Shown here: positions 59,321 to 63,990 of the stretch, in pieces
How the letters are laid out: every line of letters begins with the position of its first letter
How positions within the stretch are numbered: position 1 is the first letter of the stretch
DNA from: Escherichia phage HildyBeyeler
Sequence record: MZ501074
Reading direction: 5' to 3' (one strand)
Length of the DNA stretch: 64,000 bases
Notes under the pieces: generated by a model
Seen by the model: only the letters and a program-made list of their open reading frames with translations
Told to the model about the DNA's origin: nothing
Database searches by the model: none
Position numbers and translations under genes: made by a program

Positions 59321-60097
59321 ATGCTGGATAAACTAAATCCCTTTAATGGAGAACGTAACAAAATGAATCAAGTTAAAACGAATATTACCCGTAATTTCCC
59401 GCATGTTTCCCGCGTCATGATCTGGGATCTGGATGGCACTATCGTTAACTCATTCCATCGCGTAGCGCCTTGCTTTGATAGTGATGGTAATCTAGATCTG
59501 AATAAGTATAAAAATGAAGCGTGCAAACATGATTTAATAATGCAAGATACTTTATTGCCGCTTGTTACATATATGCGCCAATGCATGAATGACGCAAATA
59601 CTTTAAACATTATTTGTACCGCTCGACTGATGAGCAAGTCGGACTATTATTATTTGCGCAAACAAGGCTTGCGAGGGCGTGGGAATAGCAATATCCGTGT
59701 ATTTTCCCGCGATACACTGCATAAGTATTTTGAAGCTGATAAAGTTAGCGAAATATACCACAGTAAGGACGCAGTTTATAAAAGCCACTACTTTGAGTTA
59801 TTTAAGCAGTTATATCCGAACGCTGATTTCACGATGATAGACGATCATAAAGGTGTGCTAGCAGCGGCGGCATCATACGGATTTAAAACGTTGGACGCGC
59901 AAGCCGTTAACGATATTCTATCAATCGGTGTTACATTGATAGGCGAAACCTTTATCGACGAATCTCTTGAGGATGATAATGATTATCAGTTCCTAGTCGA
60001 TCGCTTGCAATTATGTTGGGAAAGTATGACCGAGGAAGAACGCGCAGAATATAGTTGCAGCCCGCAACAATATATCGAGAAACTAAAAGTTGCATAG
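59321..60097 (+). CDS. dmp: HAD-superfamily 5-prime deoxyribonucleotidase-like protein
   Basis: MIWDLDGTIVNS HAD motif I; 258 aa; pre-early context. Confidence 0.55.
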   Translation: MLDKLNPFNGERNKMNQVKTNITRNFPHVSRVMIWDLDGTIVNSFHRVAPCFDSDGNLDLNKYKNEACKHDLIMQDTLLPLVTYMRQCMNDANTLNIICTARLMSKSDYYYLRKQGLRGRGNSNIRVFSRDTLHKYFEADKVSEIYHSKDAVYKSHYFELFKQLYPNADFTMIDDHKGVLAAAASYGFKTLDAQAVNDILSIGVTLIGETFIDESLEDDNDYQFLVDRLQLCWESMTEEERAEYSCSPQQYIEKLKVA

Positions 60098-60140: not shown

Positions 60141-60272
60141 CAAGGTGAAACAGTTAGCATGATAATAGTAACGGGGGTGGCGGTTAGCAGACTAAGTATT
60201 TTCGCCCAGCCCACTGCACCCACCCACGCGTACGTAATCCAAAGAATTTGGCAAAAGTCATTTTAGCGCTAA

Positions 60273-60812
60273 TTACCTGTTTAATTGGGCAACGTCTGGT
60301 ATACTTCCTTTGAACATCTCCTGTATTGCAAAGTCACCATGAAATGTCCTTCTTAGTAAATTTGCATAATTTACGGCATCTTCTAATTCGCTATAGGGAA
60401 AGTACTTAGTAGTGCCCCTTATCAGCCCCTGTTTATCGTGTAATCTTACCATCCACTTCTGAAGTTCTTTATGCCATGTAACATTTAGATAGCCTGATGA
60501 TGCTCTTGAGATTCTGCCATTATGATTATTCTCTGTAATTGAAGCCTCTCTTAAATTTGACCATCTATTATTTAGTTTATTCCTATCTATGTGGTCTACA
60601 CATTCCTCTGGCCATCTATTCTCCATAATAACAAAAGCTACTTGATGTGCATAAGCTTTAAACCCTCGATACTTGAGCTGCCTATATCCCCTATTTAAAG
60701 TACCTGCTTCTTTACCCTTACGATTGCCGCTTTTCCAGGTAAAAACTCCAGTTTCGGGGTCATAAGCAAATACTTCTTGTATTTCCTGTATATTTAGATT
60801 ATTCTTCACCAT
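60273..60812 (-). CDS. HNH homing endonuclease
   Basis: HQVAFVIMENRWPEECVDHIDRN...NRWSNLREAS HNH signature. Confidence 0.65.
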   Translation of the reverse strand: MVKNNLNIQEIQEVFAYDPETGVFTWKSGNRKGKEAGTLNRGYRQLKYRGFKAYAHQVAFVIMENRWPEECVDHIDRNKLNNRWSNLREASITENNHNGRISRASSGYLNVTWHKELQKWMVRLHDKQGLIRGTTKYFPYSELEDAVNYANLLRRTFHGDFAIQEMFKGSIPDVAQLNR

Positions 60813-60854
60813 GAACCTCCATGTGTAATCTTATGAAATTTGGCAAAAGTCAAA

Positions 60855-61100
60855 TTAGTGCATAGAAGGGTCATCAAACCTGTGTTCTGGTCTAAACTCA
60901 CGGAATCTCTTCCGCGACGCCCGAGAACCATCATTCCACTCCCGTTCAAACTCCGCACGTTTCTCATCGAACTTCCGCTCCCTTTCCGCAATCTCCCGCG
61001 ATACTTCCGCAATATATTTACGATGCCTGTCGATAGCCGCAGTCATCCCGAAAACTCCCGCAAGTACCCCGATAATAAAAGCAATTATAATACTAAACAT
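60855..61100 (-). CDS. mini membrane protein (array member a)
   Basis: ORF track; N-terminal TM IIIAFIIGVLAGVFG then charged tail. Confidence 0.45.
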   Translation of the reverse strand: MFSIIIAFIIGVLAGVFGMTAAIDRHRKYIAEVSREIAERERKFDEKRAEFEREWNDGSRASRKRFREFRPEHRFDDPSMH

Positions 61101-61287
61101 CTAATTCCCTCTCAATTTGCAGAATACGGGTGCTACCACAACGTTGCAGTAGTACTAGCTTTTCTAGAGCAACTTGTTGTTGTTTTACTTGAGCTTCTAG
61201 AGTTTTTAGGCGAACATACGCGTTATAAGAAACAATGAAAGTTGCCCAGACTAGTATTACTATTAGTGTAGCTACTATTTCCATCAT
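61093..61287 (-). CDS. mini membrane protein (array member b)
   Basis: ORF track; TM helix then coiled coil. Confidence 0.45.
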   Translation of the reverse strand: MMEIVATLIVILVWATFIVSYNAYVRLKTLEAQVKQQQVALEKLVLLQRCGSTRILQIERELDV

Positions 61288-61391
61288 TTACGCTTCTCCG
61301 TTAATAAGGTTTCAATTCTAGCTAAGTGATTATCTAAAATACATTGCCCGATAATCACAATCCCTAGTAGTGCAATAATTACCCATTCCAT
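61284..61391 (-). CDS. mini membrane protein (array member c, 35 aa)
   Basis: Hand translation MEWVIIALLGIVIIG...RIETLLTEKRK; ATGA/TAATG coupling; not in ORF track. Confidence 0.4.
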   Translation of the reverse strand: MEWVIIALLGIVIIGQCILDNHLARIETLLTEKRK

Positions 61392-61546
61392 TATTTACGC
61401 TCCTCTAATAAAGTTTCAATTCTAGATAATCTATTGCTCAACTGCATTAATTTAACCTCTACTTGGGTTACAGAGGTATCTATTACACGTAAGCCTACAA
61501 AGAGAAGTATTAGTAAGACGAATATGCCAATAATTACCCATTCCAT
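61391..61546 (-). CDS. mini membrane protein (array member d, paralog of c)
   Basis: Start MEWVIIGIFVLL at internal ATG of track ORF; C-terminus RIETLLEERK. Confidence 0.45.
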   Translation of the reverse strand: MEWVIIGIFVLLILLFVGLRVIDTSVTQVEVKLMQLSNRLSRIETLLEERK

Positions 61547-61683
61547 TAAATCCACCCCGCCATAGCTGCTAACCAAAAACCTACGAAAATAAAGAATAGA
61601 ATAGTTCCGAATCCAAAGCTATTAATCCAGCTATCGTACACTTCCCCACGTCTACTTTTTCTTCTGTTTGACATATCTTTCAT
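61546..61683 (-). CDS. mini membrane protein (array member e, C-terminal TM)
   Basis: Hand translation MKDMSNRRKSRRGEV...TILFFIFVGFWLAAMAGWI; TAATG coupling to d; not in ORF track. Confidence 0.4.
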   Translation of the reverse strand: MKDMSNRRKSRRGEVYDSWINSFGFGTILFFIFVGFWLAAMAGWI

Positions 61684-61850
61684 GCTCCTATAAGTGCGGT
61701 ATTTGAAATATTCTATAACTTGTGCACAACCAACCGTGCCTATGAACTCCTAGAAGGACTTCTACTTTTCCTACCTAGTGGTTTCTGCCAGTACACCATC
61801 CGAGAAATAAAAAATTTAGTTTACTTGGATGTCTTTTTGCTTTATACTAA

Positions 61851-62117
61851 TTACAGGTAGTTAGATTGCTCTAGTTTAAATTTACAATCACCGTATTTAA
61901 GATCAAACTGACTGAGATCCCACCACCCAAACTTAGTACGGAGCTGTACTACTGGAAAGCGATCTCCCTTAATACGAACTTTTTGAACCTTGAGGCCGTA
62001 ATGCTCCTCCCCAGCACCGCCAAAAGATTTTACAAATCCCGTACAAAATGGTTTGGGAGCAGGTGCACAACCAGATAACATAGCTGCGGCAACTAGTGCA
62101 ATTACAAACTTTTTCAT
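61851..62117 (-). CDS. llp: Llp-like lipoprotein (candidate receptor-blocking superinfection exclusion protein)
   Basis: Signal peptide with lipobox LSGC; divergent from receptor-binding-protein gene as in T5. Confidence 0.5.
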   Translation of the reverse strand: MKKFVIALVAAAMLSGCAPAPKPFCTGFVKSFGGAGEEHYGLKVQKVRIKGDRFPVVQLRTKFGWWDLSQFDLKYGDCKFKLEQSNYL

Positions 62118-62202
62118 ATTTATCTCTCCATTTCTAATTTATGAATCTATTATAGCAAAATAGAGGGATGAAAGCAAATACATTTTTATAATAGGAGATT
62201 AT

Positions 62203-63990
62203 ATGGGTTTTTTCGCTGGAAAATATAGTGATGGTAAAACTGTATTATCACTAAACAAGGTGAATGGGGGGGATATTAATGCTCACAAAACTCCTAACGC
62301 CAATACTATATTTCATTCTGACATGCCATTTGTTCTAGTTGAGAGTACGTATGAGAGTGCGTTAAGTAGTGCTGGTAATGGGTTCTTTGTATGTCAAATG
62401 CCTTCTGATATAGCTAATTTAAAGAGCAACGACCCTGGTAGAGTTATACTAACCGCTGTTGAGATAAACGGTACACATAGAGCTTTTCTTAATGGTACTC
62501 AATCCCAGGTTGGGCAGTTCTCAGCATTTTTCGAGGATTTTGCTAGTGGTAGGGCTGGTGCTGAATTATCTGTAACATCTGCTTTTGCGATCGGTGATAG
62601 TTTAGCACACGGTACTTATACTTATAACTCTGGTTTAGGCCATGAGGAATCTATTGCTCGACAAGGTTCTGGGGGCAGTTTACTACAGGCCTCTGGGTTC
62701 CTGATCTATAGACCTGGTGGTGTTTCTGCTGGTGAAGCCATTTCCAGAGCCTGGAATCTTATGGGTTTTCCAGCGGGTGTCTCTACTGTTCCTTTAGATA
62801 GTAATCACGCAGATTATTGGGAGCCTAACTGGCAGGCACCTATTGGGTCTGCTGGTAGAGGTCACAATTGGTTTTATGTTTGTAACTCCAATATTCGTGG
62901 CTTTGCAGGTAAGAAAGGTGTATTACCAAATAACGTAAACGTTATTTATAAATCCCCCGCATACCCAGAAAAAATCTATGTTTGTAGAGGTTCTACCTCT
63001 AACTTAGCGAATCAAAGTGCTAAAAAAATGATTGTACAAGATAATTTTAATGTAACTCCAACTAAGGTTATTTGGTACGTATTGAATCTTAAGTACTCTA
63101 ATGGGGGTATGAGTGTTGCTAGTAATCCCTTTACTGGATCCGATATTCATATAAGTCCATCTAACTTTACTATAAAAGGTGTTAGTCTTCCAAACACTAG
63201 CTACAAATTCATTAATCAGAATGCTTTTGGTAATTTAGCGTCTAGACCTGATATGGAGTATGTTGGTAATAACGCTGCGTATACCGGAGTTTTTGGTGAT
63301 AATACTGCAAGATGTGAAATTGTAGGTTCTAATAAAGGCTCTTTATGGTCTCCAGTAGATTATGGTGGTTCTAAGTCTCAGATAAGTATTTACAAATTCT
63401 CTGCTGGTAAGCAATGGTATGTTAATTCCAACAATAATACTATAGGTAATGAGCATGGAGTTGTTTGGGGACCCTCTTCAGTACCTTTACGATTACTACC
63501 AAATAACGTAGCCAGTACTTATATAGGTGATGACATAAACCCTTCTTACCCGGGTACAGGTAACAAGTATGTAGCCTTATCCACAGTAAGTCTTGGACTA
63601 CCAAATGCAAACTCTACAGTAATCCTAACTACTGAAGTAGTTGCTGGAAATCTTAATACTGCTGGAATGCCTGTGCGTACTTACAGTGGTAGCGCTTGGC
63701 AGGTACAAGGTAGACGTAAACAAAGTTACACAGCTGGTGATGGCATATTCCATCAAATATTAACTTTACCACCCAACCATCTAGTACCATTCCATACTAC
63801 AGCTTCCTATAGCTATGCACAAACTCAGGCTAGTAGGCCTGATGATTTAACATTTACTAGAAATGGGTTTATTTATACTATTAAAAATTTGGGTAACGGT
63901 AACGTTGAGTTGGGTGTAGTTATACATGCTGCGGAAGCGGCAGCTGTTTTCTTACCAAGACTACGTGTAACAGTTCAACGCCTTACCTAA
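62203..63990 (+). CDS. receptor-binding tail protein candidate (pb5/Oad-like)
   Basis: 595 aa Gly/Asn/Ser-rich protein adjacent and divergent to llp-like gene; AGGAG RBS; no sequence motif recognised. Confidence 0.4.
   Translation: MGFFAGKYSDGKTVLSLNKVNGGDINAHKTPNANTIFHSDMPFVLVESTYESALSSAGNGFFVCQMPSDIANLKSNDPGRVILTAVEINGTHRAFLNGTQSQVGQFSAFFEDFASGRAGAELSVTSAFAIGDSLAHGTYTYNSGLGHEESIARQGSGGSLLQASGFLIYRPGGVSAGEAISRAWNLMGFPAGVSTVPLDSNHADYWEPNWQAPIGSAGRGHNWFYVCNSNIRGFAGKKGVLPNNVNVIYKSPAYPEKIYVCRGSTSNLANQSAKKMIVQDNFNVTPTKVIWYVLNLKYSNGGMSVASNPFTGSDIHISPSNFTIKGVSLPNTSYKFINQNAFGNLASRPDMEYVGNNAAYTGVFGDNTARCEIVGSNKGSLWSPVDYGGSKSQISIYKFSAGKQWYVNSNNNTIGNEHGVVWGPSSVPLRLLPNNVASTYIGDDINPSYPGTGNKYVALSTVSLGLPNANSTVILTTEVVAGNLNTAGMPVRTYSGSAWQVQGRRKQSYTAGDGIFHQILTLPPNHLVPFHTTASYSYAQTQASRPDDLTFTRNGFIYTIKNLGNGNVELGVVIHAAEAAAVFLPRLRVTVQRLT

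What the first reader, a model, noticed from the sequence alone, without database searches (positions are those of the whole stretch)
60855..61683. Five translationally coupled mini membrane-protein genes (35-81 aa) between HNH and llp
Minus-strand genes e-d-c-b-a overlap by TAATG/ATGA at every junction. Members c and d share an MEWVII N-terminus and an RIETLL(T)E(K/E)RK C-terminus, so they are clear paralogs. All five have a single TM helix plus a charged or coiled tail. Lying beside the receptor-blocking lipoprotein gene, this could be a diversified family of membrane-acting exclusion, holin-like or immunity peptides. Three of the five are below the ORF-track size cutoff.
Basis: partly seen in the sequence, partly recalled or inferred. 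Interest (0 to 1): 0.65.

Follow-up and report, generated by a model that had tools for sequence, protein, structure and literature searches.

The report
T5.159–162 small membrane protein operon
These are five real, overlapping genes for tiny membrane proteins that nearly all T5-like phages carry next to their receptor-blocking gene; they are already annotated as hypothetical proteins, and their function is still unknown.

Summary
On the minus strand, 60855-61683 carries five consecutive, overlapping small ORFs of 42 (or 45), 51, 35, 64 and 81 aa. Each has its own Shine-Dalgarno sequence and one hydrophobic helix.

They are not new. They are the orthologues of phage T5 genes T5.159, T5.160, T5.161 and T5.162 (PHROGs 8596, 6369, 5851, 6447), plus an extra 51-aa paralogue of T5.160. 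The window matches Escherichia phage HildyBeyeler (Bas33), where they are bas33_0191 to bas33_0187.

Four of the five are under purifying selection (dN/dS 0.09-0.30). For the 51-aa gene the test is inconclusive. The first and last genes occur in about 445 phage records, that is all Markadamsvirinae. The middle family varies from one to three copies.

Published Bas33 RNA-seq shows the locus transcribed at about the level of llp, and only after second-step DNA transfer.

Charge distribution predicts that all soluble parts face the cytoplasm. T5 has its holin and spanins elsewhere, the array persists in phages without llp, and it does not vary with receptor type. The holin and receptor-linked readings are therefore not supported. 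An inner-membrane exclusion or host-takeover role remains plausible but untested.

This is a known feature of unknown function, of modest interest.

The parts
62149..62177 (-). Probable llp promoter: TTGCTT, 17-nt spacer, TATAAT preceded by TG (extended -10).
   Evidence: Read directly from the sequence. The consensus scan missed it because the -35 hexamer matches only 3 of 6. T5 has an annotated promoter at the equivalent place.
61851..62117 (-). llp, the receptor-blocking lipoprotein (88 aa, BF23/BtuB type). It is the upstream neighbour and probably the first gene of the transcript.
   Evidence: phrog_1119 Cor superinfection exclusion, E 1.5e-25, and a lipobox (Pfam LPAM_1). dN/dS 0.05.
61675..61850 (-). 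Spacer between llp and the first mini-gene. It holds a decayed remnant of a longer ORF that is intact in phage Shivani (gp148, 108 aa, phrog_16810). No terminator or consensus promoter was found.
   Evidence: Alignment of spacers, ORF listing, phrog_16810 E 3e-48 for Shivani gp148, promoter/terminator scan and RNA fold z-score +1.0.
61546..61674 (-). Gene 1, orthologue of T5.159 / bas33_0191. 42 aa (45 aa if the ATG at 61683 is used). Basic N-terminal head, conserved RGEVY(D/E)SW(I/V)NSFGxG motif, C-terminal transmembrane helix (tail-anchored, N-terminus predicted in the cytoplasm).
   Evidence: phrog_8596 E 1.6e-31. dN/dS 0.09. Found in 446 phage records. Alignment. Hydropathy and charge.
61391..61546 (-). 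Gene 2, extra paralogue of T5.160 / bas33_0190. 51 aa. Absent from T5. N-terminal transmembrane helix and a longer helical tail ending RIETLLEERK.
   Evidence: phrog_6369 E 1.1e-15. hhalign against the 35-aa family: probability 95.8%. Found in 34 phage records. 13 distinct DNA versions, all intact, but dN/dS 0.31 is inconclusive.
61284..61391 (-). Gene 3, orthologue of T5.160 / bas33_0189. 35 aa. N-terminal transmembrane helix and a 16-aa tail, LDNHLARIETLLTEKRK.
   Evidence: phrog_6369 E 2.8e-26. dN/dS 0.12. Alignment A1.
61093..61287 (-). Gene 4, orthologue of T5.161 / bas33_0188. 64 aa. The transmembrane helix varies between phages; the heptad-patterned tail (residues 25-64) is nearly invariant.
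   Evidence: phrog_5851 E 2.7e-33. 100% identical to bas33_0188. dN/dS 0.30. AlphaFold2: one helix, residues 2-63, pLDDT 85. Alignment A6.
60855..61100 (-). Gene 5, orthologue of T5.162 / bas33_0187. 81 aa. Transmembrane helix with a conserved G11xxxG15xxG18 pattern, then an E/R/K-rich helix, then a conserved EWxDGSRxSRxRF motif. The last ~15 residues vary.
   Evidence: phrog_6447 'membrane protein' E 8.4e-47. Found in 442 phage records. dN/dS 0.28. AlphaFold2: one helix, residues 2-69, pLDDT 73. Alignment A5.
61373..61393 (.). Perfect 21-nt direct repeat with 61528-61548, marking the starts of the 35-aa and 51-aa genes. With the 87-90% identical 3' ends (61279-61325 versus 61386-61429), it gives a substrate for unequal recombination that would add or remove the 51-aa gene.
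   Evidence: the repeat finder families D1, D3 and D4.
60273..60812 (-). HNH homing endonuclease (bas33_0186), the downstream neighbour. It is absent from T5 and is not part of the array.
   Evidence: Pfam HNH_3 E 7e-12 and phrog_99 E 9e-52. Absent at this place in T5, DaisyDussoix and NBSal005.

Best explanation
The five ORFs are the conserved small-membrane-protein operon of T5-like phages: the orthologues of T5.159, T5.160, T5.161 and T5.162, plus an extra T5.160 paralogue. In Bas33 they are bas33_0191 to bas33_0187.

Shown:
- They are real protein-coding genes. Each has its own ribosome-binding site, and the stop/start overlaps are conserved.
- Each encodes one hydrophobic helix that continues into a helical polar segment.
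- The locus is transcribed after second-step DNA transfer at roughly the level of llp.

Inferred:
- They ride on the early llp transcript, because the 176-nt spacer has no terminator or promoter consensus.
- Translational coupling delivers them together to the inner membrane.
- The first is tail-anchored with its basic head in the cytoplasm. The other four insert N-out/C-in, so all soluble parts face the cytoplasm.
- They associate through small-residue (GxxxG-like) helix packing and coiled-coil tails into a membrane-anchored assembly.

The function has not been tested. The most likely role is an accessory action on the infected cell's inner membrane. That could be exclusion of incoming phage DNA at the inner membrane, as described for HK97 gp15, or neutralisation of a host inner-membrane protein. 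A role in lysis or in blocking the outer-membrane receptor is less likely.
For: Identity: significant hits to PHROGs 8596, 6369 (twice), 5851 and 6447. Same order and spacing as T5.159-T5.162, which T5's record annotates as 'contains single transmembrane domain'. Gene coordinates match Bas33 with one constant offset, and the 64-aa protein is 100% identical to bas33_0188.

Coding: the ORFs are intact in nearly all of the roughly 31 related loci examined; five carry a truncated, frameshifted or deleted 64-aa or 81-aa gene. Junction types are conserved wherever the genes are intact. dN/dS is 0.09, 0.12, 0.30 and 0.28, against 0.4-2.5 in the shifted frames.

Distribution: the first and last genes are in about 445 phage records.

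Expression: Bas33 RNA-seq at 20 min gives TPM for llp 219/127, the 51-aa gene 162/137 and the 64-aa gene 462/408. All fall to about 0 when second-step transfer is blocked (PMC13250531).

Structure and topology: one uncharged stretch of 17-24 aa per protein, with K/R only on the N side (gene 1) or the C side (genes 2-5). AlphaFold2 gives single long helices.

Operon: no terminator or promoter consensus in the spacer, which is decayed coding sequence.

Precedent: HK97 gp15 is a small inner-membrane exclusion protein (PMC3594210).
Against: - No experiment assigns any function. No homologue with a known function was found in Pfam, NCBIfam, PADLOC or the PDB.
- The topology rests only on the positive-inside rule.
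- Co-transcription with llp is inferred from the absence of signals and from unstranded RNA-seq. In that dataset the two smallest genes have about 1 TPM and the 81-aa gene 13-22 TPM. This is probably a read-assignment artefact but is unproven.
- Complex formation is not tested.
- The array persists without llp, so the adjacency may be only positional.
- The 81-aa gene is truncated, frameshifted or carries a deletion within its transmembrane helix in some phages (L020, L026, PS3-1), and the 64-aa gene is truncated in NBSal005. At least these two are therefore dispensable.
- The selection test for the 51-aa gene is inconclusive.
Confidence: 0.55

Rival explanations
1. Lysis control. The peptides would be holin-like, antiholin-like or spanin-like components that permeabilise the membrane or set the time of lysis.
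For: Small single-pass membrane proteins with charged tails are typical of lysis proteins. There are weak sub-threshold PHROG matches to Rz-like spanins and to a holin (E 0.12-0.66). An outer-membrane lipoprotein gene (llp) lies next door, as with an o-spanin.
Against: None of those matches is significant. T5 already has Rz-like spanins T5.044/T5.045, and a T5-type lysis cassette with holin, endolysin and both spanins is described in the literature (PMC4342426). The predicted topology puts the tails in the cytoplasm, the opposite of an i-spanin. Llp has a demonstrated receptor-blocking role (PMC9586334, listed).
Confidence: 0.08
2. Anti-defence or host takeover. The micro-proteins would bind and inhibit host inner-membrane proteins, such as membrane-anchored abortive-infection effectors, proteases or transporters. 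The variable middle family would reflect an arms race.
For: The middle family varies from one to three copies. In divergent T5-like phages it is replaced by unrelated proteins of the same build (transmembrane helix plus coil). The transmembrane helix of the 64-aa protein is the variable part while its tail is invariant. Expression is early-type and accessory.
Against: There is no PADLOC or other family match and no known target. The first and last genes are very conserved rather than fast-evolving (dN/dS 0.09 for the first). This rival overlaps with the best explanation and differs only in the target.
Confidence: 0.22
3. Virion or tail-assembly proteins, as many database records name them ('tail assembly protein', 'tail fiber protein', 'receptor binding/blocking protein').
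For: Those names appear in several GenBank and UniRef records for these orthologues. The locus also sits beside the receptor-binding protein gene.
Against: The names are inconsistent between records for the same orthologue. In one record even the dNMP phosphatase is called 'tail assembly protein', so they look like propagated errors. The proteins are 35-81 aa hydrophobic helices. They are transcribed divergently from the late RBP gene, together with early llp.
Confidence: 0.03
4. Chance ORFs or decaying remnants that make no functional product.
For: Three are shorter than 60 aa. The 51-aa gene shows no clear selection signal (dN/dS 0.31 versus 0.35 in a shifted frame). Some relatives carry truncated copies of the 64-aa and 81-aa genes. 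The neighbouring spacer is itself a decayed ORF.
Against: There is purifying selection on four of the five, specific to the annotated frame. The ORFs are intact and the coupling is conserved across about 31 loci, and the first and last genes occur in about 445 phage records. Each start has a Shine-Dalgarno sequence. The locus is transcribed.
Confidence: 0.04

Closest known systems
Phage T5 genes T5.159, T5.160, T5.161, T5.162 (NC_005859), which are PHROGs 8596, 6369, 5851, 6447; in Bas33 HildyBeyeler, bas33_0191 to bas33_0187
   Same: Same genes: 78-97% protein identity to the T5 products, same order, same overlaps, same position between llp and the right terminal repeat. T5's record already notes 'contains single transmembrane domain'.
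   Different: The window, like 34 phage records including DaisyDussoix and NBSal005, has an extra 51-aa paralogue of T5.160 between the T5.159 and T5.160 orthologues. An HNH gene follows the last gene here.
HK97 gp15 (YebO-like), a small inner-membrane superinfection-exclusion protein
   Same: A small phage protein that inserts into the inner membrane and blocks genome entry without touching the outer-membrane receptor (PMC3594210). It is a precedent for what such peptides can do beside a Cor/Llp-type system.
   Different: No sequence relationship was detected (no Pfam match to any such family at E up to 1). gp15 is a prophage moron expressed from a lysogen, whereas these genes belong to a virulent phage. 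No exclusion phenotype has been tested here.
Lambda Rz-type i-spanins
   Same: N-terminal transmembrane helix followed by a coiled-coil region, next to an outer-membrane lipoprotein gene. Weak PHROG similarity (E 0.12-0.3).
   Different: Much shorter. The tails are predicted to be cytoplasmic, not periplasmic. T5 has bona fide spanins elsewhere. Llp is a receptor blocker, not an o-spanin.
Bacterial bitopic proteins with an N-terminal anchor and a helical tail (LapA domain, ZapG/YhcB-like, FtsL)
   Same: Same build as the 81-aa protein. Sub-threshold matches: LapA_dom E 1.4e-4 (22.1 bits against a cut-off of 28), FtsL E 0.005 (16.4 bits against 50).
   Different: All are below the curated thresholds. 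The similarity is driven by composition and architecture, so there is no evidence of homology or shared function.

Membership tests
T5.159-T5.162 orthologous groups (PHROGs 8596 / 6369 / 5851 / 6447) | Significant full-length profile match | tested here: met
   E 1.6e-31, 1.1e-15 and 2.8e-26 (both to phrog_6369), 2.7e-33, 8.4e-47.
T5.159-T5.162 orthologous groups (PHROGs 8596 / 6369 / 5851 / 6447) | Conserved position and order: after the RBP/llp module, before the dNMP phosphatase gene at the start of the right terminal repeat | tested here: met
   Same order in T5, NBSal005, DaisyDussoix, LmqsSP1 and 22 IMG/VR loci.
Holins | Match to a holin family | tested here: not met
   Best match is phrog_689, E 0.66. 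No Pfam holin family at E up to 1.
Holins | Gene lies in the lysis cassette next to the endolysin | tested here: not met
   The locus is flanked by llp and an HNH gene. The T5 spanins T5.044/045 lie at about 22.5-23.2 kb of the T5 genome, far from this locus (PMC4342426).
Holins | Causes membrane permeabilisation and endolysin release | not testable with these tools
   Needs expression experiments.
Two-component spanins (Rz/Rz1) | i-spanin: N-in/C-out topology with a periplasmic coiled-coil domain | tested here: not met
   K/R residues lie on the C-terminal side of the helix in genes 2-5, which predicts cytoplasmic tails. This is an inference from the positive-inside rule.
Two-component spanins (Rz/Rz1) | Significant match to a spanin family, with the role otherwise vacant in the phage | tested here: not met
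   Rz-like PHROG matches have E 0.12-0.3. T5.044 and T5.045 are annotated as Rz-like spanins.
Cor/Llp receptor-blocking lipoproteins | Lipobox signal peptide and a match to phrog_1119 | tested here: not met
   Only the neighbouring llp gene matches (E 1.5e-25 plus LPAM_1). None of the five has a lipobox or a match.
Inner-membrane superinfection-exclusion proteins (HK97 gp15, T4 Imm type) | Expression alone blocks DNA entry by a superinfecting phage | not testable with these tools
   This class is defined by function. No sequence family linked to it was matched.
Type I toxin-like membrane peptides (Hok, TisB, Ldr) | Associated antisense RNA or a match to an Rfam or Pfam family | tested here: not met
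   No Rfam match at E up to 1 in 60200-62300. No Pfam match.

The most novel reading that the evidence does not exclude
The array is a multi-subunit micro-protein machine. It would be led by the invariant tail-anchored 42-aa protein and closed by the 81-aa protein, which holds a conserved EWxDGSRxSRxRF motif away from the membrane on a rigid E/R/K helix. It would act at the cytoplasmic face of the inner membrane to shut the door behind the infecting T5 genome: a receptor-independent second layer of superinfection exclusion complementing Llp, or an inhibitor of membrane-bound defence effectors. The middle MEW-helix/RIETLL family would diversify by duplication as an arms-race element.
Probability: 0.2. 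Interest if true: 0.55.

Novelty: already known. Interest (0 to 1): 0.3.

Why it matters
T5 is a classical model phage, and its relatives are widely used for biocontrol and in the BASEL collection. This operon is conserved across the whole subfamily, under purifying selection and expressed, yet it has no assigned function.

Database names for these genes are inconsistent and often wrong ('tail fiber', 'tail assembly', 'receptor blocking'), and several records omit one or more of them.

If the proteins prove to be an inner-membrane exclusion or anti-defence module, they would add a second layer to the well-studied Llp system. They would also be a tractable example of phage micro-proteins working as a set. 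As it stands, the finding mainly confirms known hypothetical genes and adds a comparative description.

Tried and rejected
- Family searches. Pfam, NCBIfam, PADLOC and PDB sequence searches on all five (PDB on the 81-aa protein only) gave nothing above threshold. Rfam found nothing in the locus.
- Wider homologue searches. Searches of 5.8 billion proteins with the 81-aa protein, the 42-aa family and the 64-aa family returned only T5-like phage proteins. An exhaustive profile search with the 42-aa family found only 5 clusters among 1.84 billion representatives.
- Literature. Searches for 'T5.159' to 'T5.162', and for small membrane proteins of T5, found no functional study. The phiR2-01 proteomics supplement is not held, so protein detection could not be checked.
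- Spanin idea. Rejected after finding T5.044/045 and the predicted topology.
- Separate promoter or terminator between llp and the array. None was found, and the spacer is a decayed ORF.
- Homology of the 64-aa family to the 35-aa family. Only suggestive: hhalign probability 59%, driven largely by the transmembrane segment. The phiR2-01 homologue does start MEWV.
- Selection on the 51-aa gene. Still inconclusive after ten more loci were fetched (nine of which supplied a full-length copy), because diversity is low (pS 0.075).
- Fold search. Not run, because single-helix models give meaningless matches.

Full report
**What is there.** On the minus strand, downstream of llp (61851-62117), five small ORFs follow one another:
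- 61546-61683 (45 aa; 42 aa from the ATG at 61674)
- 61391-61546 (51 aa)
- 61284-61391 (35 aa)
- 61093-61287 (64 aa)
- 60855-61100 (81 aa)

The junctions are TAATG, TAATG, ATGA and an 8-nt overlap (ATGTTTAG). Each start is preceded by a Shine-Dalgarno-like sequence inside the upstream gene: AGGAG, GGGGTGG, GAGGAG, GGAG and GAGAGGGA. For the first gene, AGGAG is 10 nt from the second ATG and 1 nt from the first. The PHROG profile and every annotated relative also use the 42-aa form.

**Identity.** All five match existing phage protein families: phrog_8596 (E 1.6e-31), phrog_6369 (1.1e-15 for the 51-aa gene and 2.8e-26 for the 35-aa gene), phrog_5851 (2.7e-33) and phrog_6447 'membrane protein' (8.4e-47). 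In the T5 reference genome the same position holds T5.159 (42 aa), T5.160 (35 aa), T5.161 (64 aa) and T5.162 (81 aa). Each is annotated 'contains single transmembrane domain', and they are followed directly by the right terminal repeat. T5 lacks the 51-aa gene. NBSal005, DaisyDussoix and LmqsSP1 have all five, annotated as hypothetical proteins.

The window itself corresponds to Escherichia phage HildyBeyeler (Bas33). The 64-aa protein is 100% identical to bas33_0188. The coordinates of bas33_0185 to bas33_0193 in a published dataset equal the window coordinates plus 37,863 for every gene.

**Are they genes?** In 26 related loci the ORFs are intact in nearly all. Across 31 loci, including divergent ones, the junction types are conserved. 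Pairwise dN/dS values:

| Gene | dN/dS |
|---|---|
| 42-aa gene | 0.09 |
| 35-aa gene | 0.12 |
| 64-aa gene | 0.30 |
| 81-aa gene | 0.28 |
| llp, for comparison | 0.05 |
| The same DNA read in shifted frames | 0.4-2.5 |

The 51-aa gene is less clear. Its 13 distinct DNA versions are all intact and their substitutions are conservative. Diversity is low (pS 0.075), and dN/dS of 0.31 is no better than the +1 frame at 0.35. Its coding status therefore rests on paralogy, coupling and its ribosome-binding site.

**Paralogy.** The 35-aa and 51-aa genes are paralogues. hhalign gives probability 95.8%, E 7e-9. Their DNA shares a perfect 21-nt repeat at the starts and 87-90% identity over the last ~50 nt. 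These repeats would allow unequal recombination to add or remove the 51-aa gene. That fits its patchy presence in 34 of the ~445 T5-like phage records that carry the 42-aa and 81-aa genes, beside both T5-type and BF23-type llp. The 64-aa family may be a more distant member. The hhalign probability is only 59%, but the phiR2-01 homologue begins MEWV and carries an RIQRLE motif.

**Comparative anatomy.**
- The 42-aa and 81-aa genes are found in 446 and 442 phage records, that is all Markadamsvirinae.
- The middle varies. T5 and most Tequintavirus have the 35-aa and 64-aa genes. The window and relatives have the 51-, 35- and 64-aa genes. Several Tequintavirus and Epseptimavirus phages have a single 34-aa gene. 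phiR2-01 has a single 64-aa gene. PS3-1 has a 41-aa gene, a 48-aa gene and the 64-aa gene.
- In more divergent T5-like contigs, reached through homologues of the 42-aa protein, the same slot again holds coupled single-pass proteins. One has 41, 60, 26 and 91 aa, the last a weak phrog_6447 match. An Eos-like phage has 38, 80, 107, 76 and 183 aa, all with an N-terminal helix plus coil. A third has 37 and 38 aa.
- The 42-aa family is confined to this lineage: 5 clusters among 1.84 billion representatives.
- The 81-aa gene has four alternative C-termini associated with HNH insertions, heptad-sized in-frame deletions, and occasional truncations. The 64-aa gene is truncated in NBSal005. At least these two are dispensable in some phages.

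**Protein features.** Each protein has one uncharged hydrophobic stretch of 17-24 residues. In the 42-aa protein the stretch is at the extreme C-terminus, after a basic head and the most conserved motif of the locus, RGEVY(D/E)SW(I/V)NSFGxG. In the other four it starts at residues 1-4 and is followed by K/R-containing tails. The positive-inside rule therefore predicts that every soluble part is cytoplasmic. This is an inference.

AlphaFold2 models the 64-aa and 81-aa proteins as single continuous helices: residues 2-63 at pLDDT 85, and residues 2-69 at pLDDT 73. In the 64-aa family the membrane helix varies and the tail is nearly invariant. In the 81-aa family, G11, A14, G15 and G18 of the helix and a distal EWxDGSRxSRxRF motif are conserved, separated by an E/R/K-rich helix.

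**Expression.** A near-consensus promoter (TTGCTT, 17 nt, TG-n-TATAAT) precedes llp. T5 has an annotated promoter at the equivalent place and none between llp and T5.159. The 176-nt spacer shows no terminator or promoter consensus and no unusual RNA structure. It is the decayed remnant of an ORF that is intact in Shivani.

Published, unstranded RNA-seq of Bas33 at 20 min after infection (PMC13250531, Dataset S1) gives these TPM values in two replicates:

| Gene | TPM (rep 1 / rep 2) |
|---|---|
| RBP | 252 / 162 |
| llp | 219 / 127 |
| 42-aa gene | 0.8 / 1.0 |
| 51-aa gene | 162 / 137 |
| 35-aa gene | 0.5 / 1.2 |
| 64-aa gene | 462 / 408 |
| 81-aa gene | 22 / 13 |
| HNH | 525 / 444 |
| Major capsid protein | 5136 / 3009 |

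All fall to about zero when daunorubicin blocks second-step transfer. The near-zero counts for the 108-nt and 129-nt genes, which sit between well-covered neighbours, are most simply a read-assignment artefact. That is my interpretation and was not tested. I found no protein-level evidence.

**Function.** Nothing known matches.
- The holin and spanin readings are disfavoured. T5 has Rz-like spanins T5.044/045 and a complete lysis cassette elsewhere (PMC4342426). The family matches are insignificant, and the tails are predicted to be cytoplasmic.
- A direct partnership with Llp is disfavoured. The array is kept where llp is missing. It is also about 90% identical beside the FhuA-type and BtuB-type llp genes, which the literature describes as non-homologous (PMC10644984).
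- What remains is an accessory action at the inner membrane. That could be receptor-independent exclusion of incoming DNA, with HK97 gp15 as the precedent (PMC3594210), or interference with a host inner-membrane protein or defence effector. The copy-number turnover of the middle family fits either. I favour this class of explanation, but the specific role is unproven.

**Verdict.** The genes are real. They have long been annotated as hypothetical membrane proteins of T5-like phages, so the feature is not new. The functional suggestions are untested, and two of them (holin-like, and linked to Llp's receptor block) are weakened by the evidence here.

Noticed in passing
window 61675-61850 (minus strand); compare L031 611-937 and L029 1309-1624: The spacer between llp and the first mini-gene is not a regulatory region. 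It is the decayed remnant of an acidic ~108-aa ORF (phrog_16810) that is intact in phage Shivani and fragmented in Epseptimavirus. T5 keeps only an 18-codon tail (MEGVMGIFTLITAIARVF).
   Followed up: partly
window 60273-60812 (minus strand); L017, L019, L021-L026, L029: HNH homing endonuclease genes insert at the 3' end of the 81-aa gene in many relatives. They are often coupled to it by ATGA. They go with four alternative C-termini of the 81-aa protein (…REFRPEHRFDDPSMR, …AKVSDEE, …IDGKS, …MSESGDKPVDRRSS). In the window the HNH gene lies 42 nt after an intact 81-aa gene.
   Followed up: partly
whole window: The window equals Escherichia phage HildyBeyeler (Bas33) coordinates 37,864-101,863 of the Bas33Jul assembly. 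The coordinates of bas33_0185 to bas33_0193 differ from window coordinates by a constant 37,863. This phage gave no match of 99% or more in the phage collection searched.
   Followed up: yes
relatives: L003 (LmqsSP1), L039 (JLBYU43), L045 (ESCO30), L037 (HK6), L030 (phiR2-01), L040 (SA001): Annotation of these mini-genes is inconsistent. The same orthologues are named 'tail fiber protein', 'tail assembly protein', 'receptor binding protein' or 'receptor blocking protein' in some records. One or more of them (usually the 42-, 51- or 35-aa gene) are not annotated at all in others.
   Followed up: partly
alignment A5 (homologues of window 60855-61100): Several homologues of the 81-aa protein carry in-frame deletions of exactly 7 residues (GILAGVF within the membrane helix; REIAERE or IAEVSRE in the charged helix). 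There is also an 11-residue deletion and a 4-residue AEKR duplication. This suggests slippage between short repeats and tolerance of length changes in the helix.
   Followed up: no
window 59321-60097 (plus strand): The dNMP phosphatase (dmp) ORF is listed as 258 aa from the first ATG, but relatives and Bas33 annotate 244 aa (735 nt). This gene marks the start of the terminal repeat in T5, so the mini-gene array is the last unique coding block before the right repeat.
   Followed up: no
L046 (Salmonella phage PS3-1) 118-772: A further arrangement: the 42-aa gene is N-terminally truncated by an HNH insertion. It is followed by a 41-aa MEFW-helix gene, a 48-aa gene with two copies of the ARVETQL/SRIETLL motif, the 64-aa gene, and a frameshifted 81-aa gene. 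The 48-aa form suggests that the 51-aa gene arose by internal duplication of the tail motif.
   Followed up: partly
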